64,000 bases of DNA from Escherichia coli O127:H6 str. E2348/69 (lineage in GTDB: Bacteria; Pseudomonadota; Gammaproteobacteria; Enterobacterales; Enterobacteriaceae), in NCBI RefSeq assembly GCF_000026545.1, contig NC_011601.1, one strand, 5' to 3'. Shown piece by piece: positions 62,801-64,000 of this stretch. The position numbers were made by a program. Within the stretch, counting starts at the first letter, position 1; every line of letters begins with the position of its first letter.

Positions 62801-64000
62801 TGCCGGGCAGGCGAACTTTACGTTCAACCAGCGTCATCACCAGCATGATAAAAGCGTTAATCAACACATACGCAAGCGTAATGGCGGTAAACGACTCCCA
62901 GGCGTGAGCGGAGTAATCGAGTAATTTACCCGCCTGCGCCGCCATATCTACCAGGCCGATAGTCGAGGCGATGGCCGAGTTTTTCACCAGGTTCATCATC
63001 TCGGAGGTCATCGGCGGGACGATAACGCGATAAGCATTAGGCAGCAGTACGTAGCGGTAAGCCTGCGGTAGCGTCAGACCCATCGCCAGCGCGGCATTTT
63101 TTTGCCCACGCGGCAGCGACTGAATAGCGGCGCGTACCTGTTCGCAAACACGGGCGGCGGTAAACAGCCCCAGGCAGAGTATGGATGAAAGGAAAAATTG
63201 AATATTAGGATCCAGCTCTGCCTTAAACCACATGCCGATTTTCTCTGGCAGCAGCTCCGGGATCACCAGGTACCAGGTAAAGAATTGCACAATCAACGGC
63301 ACGTTGCGGAACAGTTCGACATACAACGTACCCAGACCGGAGAGAAAACGGTTTGGAACGGTACGTAAAATGCCGAAAAATGAACCGACGAGGAAAGCGA
63401 TAATCCAGGCGCAGATCGACAAAGCGATCGTCACCTGAAAGCCACTCCAGATCCAACCAAGATAGGTGGTGTTGCCGAACGGGGCTTGTTGTAAAAAAAT
63501 ACCCCAGTTCCAGTCTATAGACATAAATCTACTCCAGAAAAAAGAGGGTAGCAGCGTTAACTGCTACCCTCGAAGATTGTTACCCAGCGTATTGCGGTTT
63601 TCAGGCCCGATGGGGAACGACCACCAGGCGTATAGTCTGTCCGTGCTACGTAACAATCGAGAGGGCTGGAATTTCCGCCCCTGGTTCTTGTAATTAGTTC
63701 AGTGCCTTGTCATTCGGTTCTTTGAACAGTGCTTTCATTTCGTCTGACAGTTCGAAATTCATGTTCAGGTTTTTCGGCGGAATTGGATTTTTGAACCACT
63801 TATCAAACCATTTTTCCGCTTCACCGGAGGTCTGCACCTGAGCGATGGTATCATCCATCAGCTTTTTGAACTGCGGATCGTCTTTACGCAACATGCAACC
63901 ATAGGCTTCCTGAGACTGCGGCTTGCCGACGATTTCCCAGTTGTCTGGTTTCTTCGCTTTCGCACGTTCACCGGCCAGCAGAGCATCATCCATCATAAAG

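What the first reader, a model, noticed from the sequence alone, without database searches (positions are those of the whole stretch)
63525..63693. gltI-gltJ spacer with strong attenuator hairpin: SroC sponge sRNA locus
The spacer ends in an 11-bp stem hairpin with a U-tract on the minus transcript (63535..63570). In E. coli and Salmonella this spacer is known to yield SroC, which sponges GcvB. Not novel, but it is a functional RNA that a CDS-only annotation misses.
Basis: partly seen in the sequence, partly recalled or inferred. Interest (0 to 1): 0.25.

Follow-up and report, generated by a model that had tools for sequence, protein, structure and literature searches.

The report
Known E. coli small RNA SroC
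The gap between the glutamate/aspartate transporter genes gltI and gltJ holds the already well-studied E. coli small RNA SroC, which pairs with and destroys the regulatory RNA GcvB; it is real, functional and ordinary.

Summary
The observation and the interpretation both hold. The gltI–gltJ spacer is exactly 63525–63693 on the minus strand. It ends in a strong intrinsic-terminator hairpin with 12 pairs (11 Watson-Crick plus one U·G), a UAAC loop and a U6 tract (ΔG −22.7 kcal/mol, z −5.7). Rfam's sroC model (RF00369) matches full length at 63698..63536 (−) with 172.6 bits against a cut-off of 45. The sequence is 162/163 identical to the annotated K-12 sroC (b4763). The single difference turns an A-U stem pair into G·U. 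Both published GcvB-pairing sites are intact, 14 nt apart, and complementary to GcvB nt 156–163 and 13–19. Across 42 homologues from six enterobacterial genera both sites are invariant, while the surrounding stems covary. The locus is present in 5421 of 5426 complete E. coli genomes, and gcvB in 5425. Three small corrections apply. The RNA starts 5 nt inside gltI (63698), not at the spacer edge. "Attenuator" should read "leaky Rho-independent terminator". SroC does more than sequester GcvB: it triggers its RNase E decay. This is already known, so interest is low.

The parts
63694..64000 (-). 3' end of gltI (periplasmic Glu/Asp-binding protein). It is cut by the window edge. The stop codon TAA lies at 63694-63696. 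This is the parental mRNA of SroC.
   Evidence: ORF list. NCBIfam NF008063 match to positions 203-302 of 302. RefSeq annotation of identical DNA.
63536..63698 (-). SroC small RNA, 163 nt. It overlaps the last 5 nt of gltI.
   Evidence: Rfam RF00369 full-length match at 172.6 bits against GA 45. It is 162/163 identical to K-12 sroC b4763.
63662..63681 (-). Stem-loop 1 of SroC (nt 18-37).
   Evidence: MFE and centroid fold. It matches the first Rfam helix. Helix 1 is 83% paired across 42 homologues, with 2 pairs changed on both sides.
63575..63658 (-). Long composite stem-loop 2 of SroC (nt 41-124), which carries both GcvB contact sites.
   Evidence: Folds. Helices 2-5 are 79-100% paired across genera, with 7 pairs changed on both sides.
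63635..63642 (-). GcvB pairing site in the internal bulge: GGACAGAC (SroC nt 57-64). It is complementary to GcvB nt 156-163, GUCUGUCC. C60 (window 63639) corresponds to the Salmonella C63 mutated in the paper and pairs with GcvB G160.
   Evidence: Exact 8-nt complementarity to the annotated K-12 gcvB. The site was not part of the search pattern yet is invariant in 42/42 homologues. Probing and compensatory mutations are in PMC4474525.
63614..63620 (-). GcvB pairing site in the apical loop of SL2: UCGUUCC (SroC nt 79-85). It is complementary to GcvB nt 13-19, GGAACGA. C84 (window 63615) corresponds to Salmonella C87 and pairs with GcvB G14.
   Evidence: Exact 7-nt complementarity. The site is entirely unpaired in the predicted fold. 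It lies 14 nt from the other site, as published.
63624..63624 (-). The only difference from K-12 sroC: SroC nt 75 is G here and A in K-12. It pairs with U89, so A-U becomes G.U.
   Evidence: Alignment and pair table. At this pair the 42 homologues show AU 19, CG 12, GC 10, GU 1.
63544..63571 (-). Terminator hairpin with a 12-pair stem and UAAC loop. It forms the 3' end of SroC and of the monocistronic gltI mRNA. It is leaky, so read-through gives gltIJKL.
   Evidence: The stem is conserved across genera at 98.7% paired. The description as a 'leaky Rho-independent terminator' comes from PMC4474525.
63538..63543 (-). U6 tract of the terminator. From general knowledge of Hfq-dependent sRNAs, this is the expected Hfq-binding 3' tail.
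   Evidence: It reads TTTTTT in 40/42 homologues and ATTTTT in 2.
62784..63535 (-). gltJ, with its Shine-Dalgarno GGAG at 63535-63532 and ATG at 63524. It is expressed only from transcripts that read through the terminator.

Best explanation
This is the E. coli sroC locus. Transcription from the single gltI promoter, which lies outside the window, either reads through into gltJKL or stops at the leaky intrinsic terminator at 63571-63538. The terminated gltI mRNA is degraded 5'-to-3' by RNase E in a 5'-monophosphate-dependent, Hfq-guided manner. That decay leaves the tightly folded, very stable 163-nt 3' fragment SroC (63698..63536). With Hfq, SroC pairs through two short sites with two distant parts of the GcvB small RNA. 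GGACAGAC in an internal bulge pairs with GcvB nt 156-163, and UCGUUCC in the SL2 loop pairs with GcvB nt 13-19. Pairing exposes GcvB to RNase E cleavage, while SroC itself is not consumed. Lower GcvB levels relieve repression of many amino-acid transport and biosynthesis mRNAs, including gltI itself, which makes a feed-forward loop. Shown here: identity, anatomy, complementarity, conservation and covariation. Taken from published experiments on near-identical sequences: RNase E processing, Hfq dependence, GcvB decay, and the additional targets (MgrR sRNA; fliE/flhBAE mRNAs in Salmonella).
For: Rfam sroC matches full length at 172.6 bits against GA 45. The sequence is 162/163 identical to the annotated K-12 sroC, in the same gltI-gltJ position. 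The terminator is 12 bp plus U6, z = -5.7, and the whole-RNA fold has z = -6.0. No sigma-70-like promoter was found in 63300-64000, consistent with origin by processing. There are exact 8-nt and 7-nt complementarities to the annotated gcvB at the published positions. They lie 14 nt apart in SroC and 137 nt apart in GcvB, and cover GcvB G14, G18, G156 and G160. Both sites are invariant in 42/42 homologues from Escherichia, Citrobacter, Kluyvera, Klebsiella, Raoultella and Enterobacter. In the same set the stems covary: 93.3% of cells are paired against 34-52% for slid controls, and the covariation score is 0.189 against at most 0.065. The locus is present in 5421/5426 complete E. coli genomes, at a median of one copy. 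gcvB is present in 5425/5426. The published mechanism is in PMC4474525. That paper states the E. coli homologues are equally functional. E. coli half-life data are in PMC10250213, and a review is PMC9438474.
Against: Nothing contradicts it. There are four limits. No expression data exist for this strain. The 5' end is inferred from the K-12 annotation and the Rfam model, not measured. Short complementarity alone is only weakly significant (7-mers p about 0.04 and 8-mers p about 0.10 in shuffles). Two other equally long chance complementarities exist: SroC 101-108 with the GcvB terminator stem, and SroC 146-152 with GcvB 114-120. So the site assignment rests on agreement with published probing and mutagenesis, not on the computation alone. 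The G75 variant is untested experimentally, but it preserves pairing and lies outside both contact sites.
Confidence: 0.97

Rival explanations
1. The spacer is only a cis-acting intercistronic element. On this reading it is a partial terminator and 3' stabiliser that sets the excess of binding protein GltI over the membrane components GltJKL, and it has no trans-acting RNA function.
For: The terminator sits exactly between the binding-protein gene and the permease genes. The literature does assign it this role as well.
Against: As a sole function it cannot explain several things. One is 130 nt of conserved, covarying structure upstream of the terminator. Another is the absolute invariance of two unpaired or bulged 7-8-mers complementary to GcvB across six genera, while neighbouring stem positions change freely. 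It also cannot explain the published compensatory-mutation rescue. The cis role is part of the accepted model, not an alternative to it.
Confidence: 0.02
2. The SroC region is in addition a regulated attenuator. A fold in which nt 37-41 pair with nt 127-131 competes with the bottom of the terminator stem, and a signal or factor sets how often transcription reads into gltJKL.
For: Rfam's consensus structure contains this helix. Predicted folds of the nascent RNA up to nt 131-143 adopt it, occupying the lowest 4 nt of the terminator's 5' arm. The authors of PMC4474525 themselves raise regulated termination as an open possibility, because conserved nucleotides exist outside the GcvB contacts.
Against: The full transcript strongly prefers the terminator (-65.7 against -54.3 kcal/mol). 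The competing helix shows no covariation at all. One of its five pairs is broken (C.A or A.A) in 13 of 42 homologues. Only 4 of 12 terminator pairs are affected in E. coli. No ligand, leader peptide or factor is known.
Confidence: 0.08
3. The hairpin is a dispersed intergenic repeat (a REP/BIME-type element), as found after the binding-protein gene in several other ABC-transporter operons.
For: The operon position is the same as that of REP elements in malE-malF or hisJ-hisQ (established knowledge).
Against: The sequence occurs once per genome: median 1 place, 5431 places in 5421 genomes. It carries a U-tract. It matches a single-locus Rfam family rather than a repeat.
Confidence: 0.005
4. The 75-codon ORF on the plus strand (63466-63693), antisense to the spacer, is a real gene.
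For: It appears in the mechanical ORF list.
Against: It overlaps the gltJ start and the whole of sroC in antisense. No annotated feature exists there in K-12 or in PGAP records. No promoter-like site was found. The conservation pattern is that of an RNA structure with paired compensatory changes, not of codons.
Confidence: 0.005

Closest known systems
SroC sRNA (Rfam RF00369; E. coli K-12 b4763; Salmonella SroC of Miyakoshi, Chao & Vogel 2015, PMC4474525)
   Same: It shares the locus (gltI 3' end to the gltI-gltJ spacer), the length (163 nt) and the three-part fold (SL1, long SL2, terminator). It has the same two GcvB pairing sites with the same 14-nt spacing. It is 162/163 identical to K-12.
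   Different: There is one base difference: G instead of A at nt 75, giving a G.U pair instead of A-U in the SL2 upper stem. It lies outside both contact sites. Salmonella numbering is offset by +3 relative to the E. coli RNA.
Other processed 3'-UTR-derived Hfq sRNAs (CpxQ, SdhX, NarS, MalH, OppZ)
   Same: These are also released from a parental mRNA by RNase E, share the mRNA's intrinsic terminator, carry a 5' monophosphate and are very stable.
   Different: SroC comes from within an operon, at a leaky internal terminator, rather than from the operon's end. Its main target is another sRNA rather than an mRNA.
Other bacterial sRNA sponges (chbBC spacer/ChiX trap, 3'ETS-leuZ, AgvB, SponR-type RNAs)
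   Same: These are also RNAs that base-pair with a regulatory sRNA and lower its activity.
   Different: SroC uses two short additive sites contacting distant parts of GcvB. It provokes RNase E cleavage without being consumed itself. In the ChiX trap, by contrast, decay involves the ChiX terminator region and PNPase.

Membership tests
SroC (Rfam RF00369) | Scores at or above the curated gathering threshold of the covariance model, over its full length. | tested here: met
   172.6 bits against 45, model positions 1-163 of 163, not truncated.
SroC (Rfam RF00369) | Lies at the 3' end of gltI and in the gltI-gltJ spacer, on the operon's strand. | tested here: met
   gltI stop at 63694-63696 and gltJ ATG at 63524, with gltK and gltL downstream, all on the minus strand.
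SroC (Rfam RF00369) | Sequence homology to the experimentally defined E. coli K-12 sroC. | tested here: met
   162/163 identical to NC_000913.3 686681-686843.
SroC (Rfam RF00369) | 3' end formed by a Rho-independent terminator with a U-tract. | tested here: met
   12-pair stem plus U6, -22.7 kcal/mol, z = -5.7. Conserved in 42/42 homologues.
SroC (Rfam RF00369) | Two short GcvB-complementary sites, 14 nt apart, one in the SL2 loop and one in an internal bulge, pairing with GcvB around G14/G18 and G156/G160. | tested here: met
   SroC 57-64 pairs with GcvB 156-163, and SroC 79-85 with GcvB 13-19, matching. Both sites are invariant in 42/42 homologues.
SroC (Rfam RF00369) | Conserved secondary structure supported by compensatory changes. 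| tested here: met
   93.3% of cells are paired against 34-52% for slid controls. Ten pairs show changes on both sides. The covariation score is 0.189 against at most 0.065. One caveat applies: the structure was derived from the window sequence, which favours it over the slid versions.
SroC (Rfam RF00369) | No promoter of its own; generated by RNase E processing of gltI mRNA (5' monophosphate). | not testable with these tools
   The consensus scan found no promoter-like site in 63300-64000, which is consistent but weak. Processing itself is known only from experiments.
SroC (Rfam RF00369) | Accumulates as a discrete, Hfq-bound RNA of about 160 nt that shortens GcvB half-life. | not testable with these tools
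   No expression data were available. This has been shown for Salmonella and E. coli K-12 in PMC4474525 and PMC10250213.
Regulated transcription attenuator (leader-type or riboswitch-type) | A mutually exclusive anti-terminator fold that is conserved, with covariation. | tested here: inconclusive
   A competing 5-pair helix (37-41 with 127-131) is predicted in the nascent RNA. It has no covariation and is broken at one pair in 13/42 homologues.
Regulated transcription attenuator (leader-type or riboswitch-type) | A sensed signal (leader peptide, ligand, protein or tRNA). | not tested
   None is known. No Rfam riboswitch or leader family matches here.
REP/BIME intergenic repeat | Many dispersed copies per genome. 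| tested here: not met
   Median one place per genome, with 5431 places in 5421 genomes.

The most novel reading that the evidence does not exclude
The conserved nucleotides of SroC outside the GcvB contacts may form a co-transcriptional switch. The nascent RNA first extends the base of SL2 (nt 37-41 with 127-131). The terminator hairpin then has to displace those pairs. A factor or condition that stabilises the extended SL2 would raise read-through into gltJKL and at the same time lower SroC output. That would couple transporter stoichiometry to GcvB levels. The differing terminator stem lengths (12 bp in Escherichia, about 7-9 bp in Citrobacter, Klebsiella and Raoultella) would then set different leakiness in each genus.
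Probability: 0.08. Interest if true: 0.4.

Novelty: already known. Interest (0 to 1): 0.08.

Why it matters
The finding adds nothing to biology. SroC was found in 2003 and its mechanism was worked out in 2015. Its practical value is for annotation. The standard PGAP annotation of thousands of E. coli RefSeq genomes carries no feature for sroC or for its partner gcvB. A scan that flags this spacer is therefore correctly recovering a functional RNA that gene tables omit. The case is also a useful positive control for the first-stage reader, which recognised a processed 3'-UTR sRNA from raw sequence.

Tried and rejected
1. Statistical support for the GcvB pairing from complementarity alone was weak. 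In shuffles, 7-mers gave p about 0.04 and 8-mers p about 0.10. Two further chance matches of 7-8 nt exist, and both lie inside terminator stems. The assignment therefore rests on agreement with published probing and mutations, and on cross-genus invariance.

2. Whole-molecule RNAduplex of SroC against GcvB gave an uninformative end-to-end duplex and was discarded.

3. An anti-terminator reading was tested. A competing helix is predicted in nascent RNA, but it lacks covariation and is broken in Klebsiella and Raoultella. It is kept only as a low-probability novel case.

4. The REP-element reading was rejected because the locus is single-copy.

5. The plus-strand 75-aa ORF was rejected because it has no annotation, no promoter and an RNA-type conservation pattern.

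6. The weak Rfam hit to Listeria sbrA (25.1 bits against GA 45, E = 0.068) is just the terminator hairpin.

7. The cross-genus DNA pattern found no Salmonella or Yersinia. It required 22 exact bases in the SL2 loop and 3' arm, so this absence is a limit of the pattern, not evidence that they lack SroC.

8. The first Python attempt failed because loci are stored together in one file. It was rerun successfully.

Full report
**Observation.** On the minus strand the window carries the 3' end of an ORF that stops at 63694-63696. A 169-nt gap follows (63525-63693), and then an ORF starts at 63524.
- The upstream fragment matches the C-terminal third of the glutamate/aspartate-binding protein family. 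The downstream ORFs are the permeases and the ATPase of that transporter.
- Identical DNA in RefSeq E. coli genomes is annotated gltI and gltJ.
- The spacer ends with GAGGGUAGCAGU-UAAC-GCUGCUACCCUC followed by UUUUUU (63571..63538). This is 12 pairs, 11 of them Watson-Crick, at -22.7 kcal/mol. None of 200 dinucleotide shuffles folds as well (z = -5.7).

**Identity.** Three independent lines agree that this is sroC.
- Rfam's sroC model (RF00369) matches 63698..63536 (-) over its entire length. The score is 172.6 bits, nearly four times the curated threshold, at E about 1e-37.
- The curated K-12 MG1655 record annotates ncRNA sroC (b4763) at the equivalent place, overlapping the last 5 nt of gltI. 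The window differs from it at one of 163 positions.
- That difference (nt 75, window 63624, G for A) faces U89 in the upper stem of SL2, so A-U becomes G.U. The predicted fold is unchanged.
- The 163-nt sequence occurs in 5421 of 5426 complete E. coli genomes, normally once per genome.

**Anatomy.** The predicted fold (-65.7 kcal/mol, z = -6.0) has three parts:
- a short SL1 (nt 18-37);
- a long interrupted SL2 (nt 41-124);
- the terminator (nt 128-155), followed by the U-tract.

No sigma-70-like promoter is found in 63300-64000. This is weak evidence, but it agrees with an RNA made by processing.

**Test of the sponge function.** Miyakoshi, Chao and Vogel (PMC4474525) mapped two contact sites of 7-8 nt by structure probing. 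The sites lie 14 nt apart in SroC and far apart in GcvB. They protect GcvB G14, G18 and G156. The authors proved the contacts with compensatory mutations: SroC C63/C87 with GcvB G160/G14, in Salmonella numbering.
- I took the annotated K-12 gcvB and searched for exact complementarity.
- SroC 57-64 GGACAGAC matches GcvB 156-163. SroC 79-85 UCGUUCC, which is the whole apical loop of SL2, matches GcvB 13-19.
- The two SroC sites are 14 nt apart. The GcvB sites are 137 nt apart, as also stated in PMC10250213.
- The mutated cytosines correspond to window positions 63639 and 63615, and both are present.
- On its own this complementarity is only marginally better than shuffles, and two other chance matches of equal length exist. 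What carries the weight is the coincidence with the published experimental positions.
- gcvB itself is present in 5425 of 5426 E. coli genomes. It is 100% identical to K-12 in a genome whose gltI-gltJ region is identical to the window.

**Related sequences.** I made one scan of representative bacterial and archaeal genomes. The 22-base pattern was anchored on the SL2 loop and 3' arm only. It returned 43 loci, all Enterobacteriaceae: Escherichia, Citrobacter, Kluyvera, Klebsiella, Raoultella and Enterobacter.
- In the 42 usable sequences, the bulge site GGACAGAC was not part of the pattern, yet it is invariant.
- The stems change with compensation. For example, the upper SL2 stem reads GCCUGAUGG/CCAUCAGGC, GUCAGGUGG/CCACCUGAC or GGCGGCUGG/CCAGCCGCC.
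- Counting the window's predicted structure on this alignment gives 93.3% standard pairs, against 34-52% when partners are slid by 1-3 columns. Ten pairs show changes on both sides. The covariation score is 0.189, against at most 0.065 for the slid controls.
- The terminator and U-tract are always present. The stem is longer in Escherichia (12 pairs) than in Citrobacter, Klebsiella or Raoultella (about 7-9 pairs).

**Mechanism.** The identity and anatomy above are shown by sequence. The steps below are taken from published experiments on near-identical RNAs.
- The single gltI promoter yields both gltIJKL mRNA and a monocistronic gltI mRNA that ends at this leaky Rho-independent terminator.
- RNase E trims the gltI mRNA down to SroC through its 5'-end-dependent pathway, with Hfq ensuring the correct end.
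- SroC pairs with GcvB through the two additive sites and triggers RNase E cleavage of GcvB, without being degraded itself.
- In E. coli, SroC reduces GcvB half-life from more than 16 min to about 4 min, whatever its own 5' phosphorylation state. SroC's own half-life exceeds 16 min.
- GcvB targets, including gltI, are thereby de-repressed.
- A review adds MgrR as a second sponged sRNA, and fliE/flhBAE as mRNA targets in Salmonella. I did not test these pairings.

- "Attenuator" is acceptable only in the loose sense of an intra-operon partial terminator. I looked for a competing fold. Rfam's consensus and predicted nascent-RNA folds pair nt 37-41 with nt 127-131, which occupies the lowest four positions of the terminator's 5' arm.
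- The complete RNA favours the terminator by about 11 kcal/mol. The competing helix never covaries, and one of its pairs is broken in 13 of 42 homologues. Regulated attenuation therefore remains a speculation. The original authors also raise it as an open question.
- "Sponge" understates the mechanism, which is induced decay rather than titration.
- The RNA's coordinates are 63536-63698 rather than the spacer's 63525-63693.

**Verdict.** The feature is already known and is a textbook example of its class. The only practical point is that routine annotation omits it: PGAP records list no feature for sroC or gcvB.

Noticed in passing
window 63624 (SroC nt 75): The window's sroC allele has G where K-12 has A. 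This gives a G.U pair with U89. Among 42 enterobacterial homologues this pair is AU 19, CG 12, GC 10 and GU 1, so the window allele looks like an intermediate between A-U and G-C states. Many E. coli genomes share the allele (100% hits).
   Followed up: partly
window 63544-63571, compared with loci L004-L046: The terminator stem is 12 pairs with a UAAC loop in Escherichia. It is only about 7-9 pairs (GGGUAGC-GCU-GCUACCC) in Citrobacter, Klebsiella and Raoultella. Kluyvera has its own different extension. This might mean that leakiness of gltI/gltJKL termination is specific to each genus.
   Followed up: partly
window 63568-63572 with 63658-63662 (SroC nt 127-131 with 37-41): Predicted folds of the nascent RNA, and the Rfam consensus, extend the base of SL2 into the bottom of the terminator's 5' arm. 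The full transcript prefers the terminator by about 11 kcal/mol. The extra helix has no covariation and one pair is broken in 13/42 homologues.
   Followed up: yes
L015 (C. braakii) 2029-2150; also L018 and L019: Three Citrobacter genomes carry about 120 nt of extra sequence between the gltI stop codon and SL1 of the SroC homologue. gltI itself is intact (95% identical to K-12 over its full length). The 5' end of SroC may therefore differ in these species.
   Followed up: partly
RefSeq records NZ_AP018784.2 and others: PGAP-annotated E. coli RefSeq genomes list no feature under sroC or under gcvB. Only the curated MG1655 record does.
   Followed up: partly
window 42487-42935 (+): Rfam cspA thermoregulator (RF01766) matches full length at 138.6 bits against GA 78. 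This is presumably the mRNA of a cspA-family cold-shock gene.
   Followed up: no
window 29410-29518 (-): Rfam 'Enterobacteria rnk leader' (RF01771) matches full length at 123.3 bits against GA 50.
   Followed up: no
window 25514-25607 (+): Rfam STnc70 (RF02069) scores just above threshold (44.1 bits against GA 40). The match is 94 nt against a 149-position model, so it is a marginal call.
   Followed up: no
E. coli genome search: A few genomes hold two copies of the gltI-sroC-gltJ stretch, and two copies lie on plasmids. Five of 5426 genomes lack it.
   Followed up: no
L001 4852-6001 (K-12), compared with L002 1-245: Upstream of gltI, K-12 carries IS5D (insH3). Strain SK1144, whose gltI-gltJ region is identical to the window, has a rhomboid-family protease gene there instead. 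This region lies beyond the window's end.
   Followed up: no
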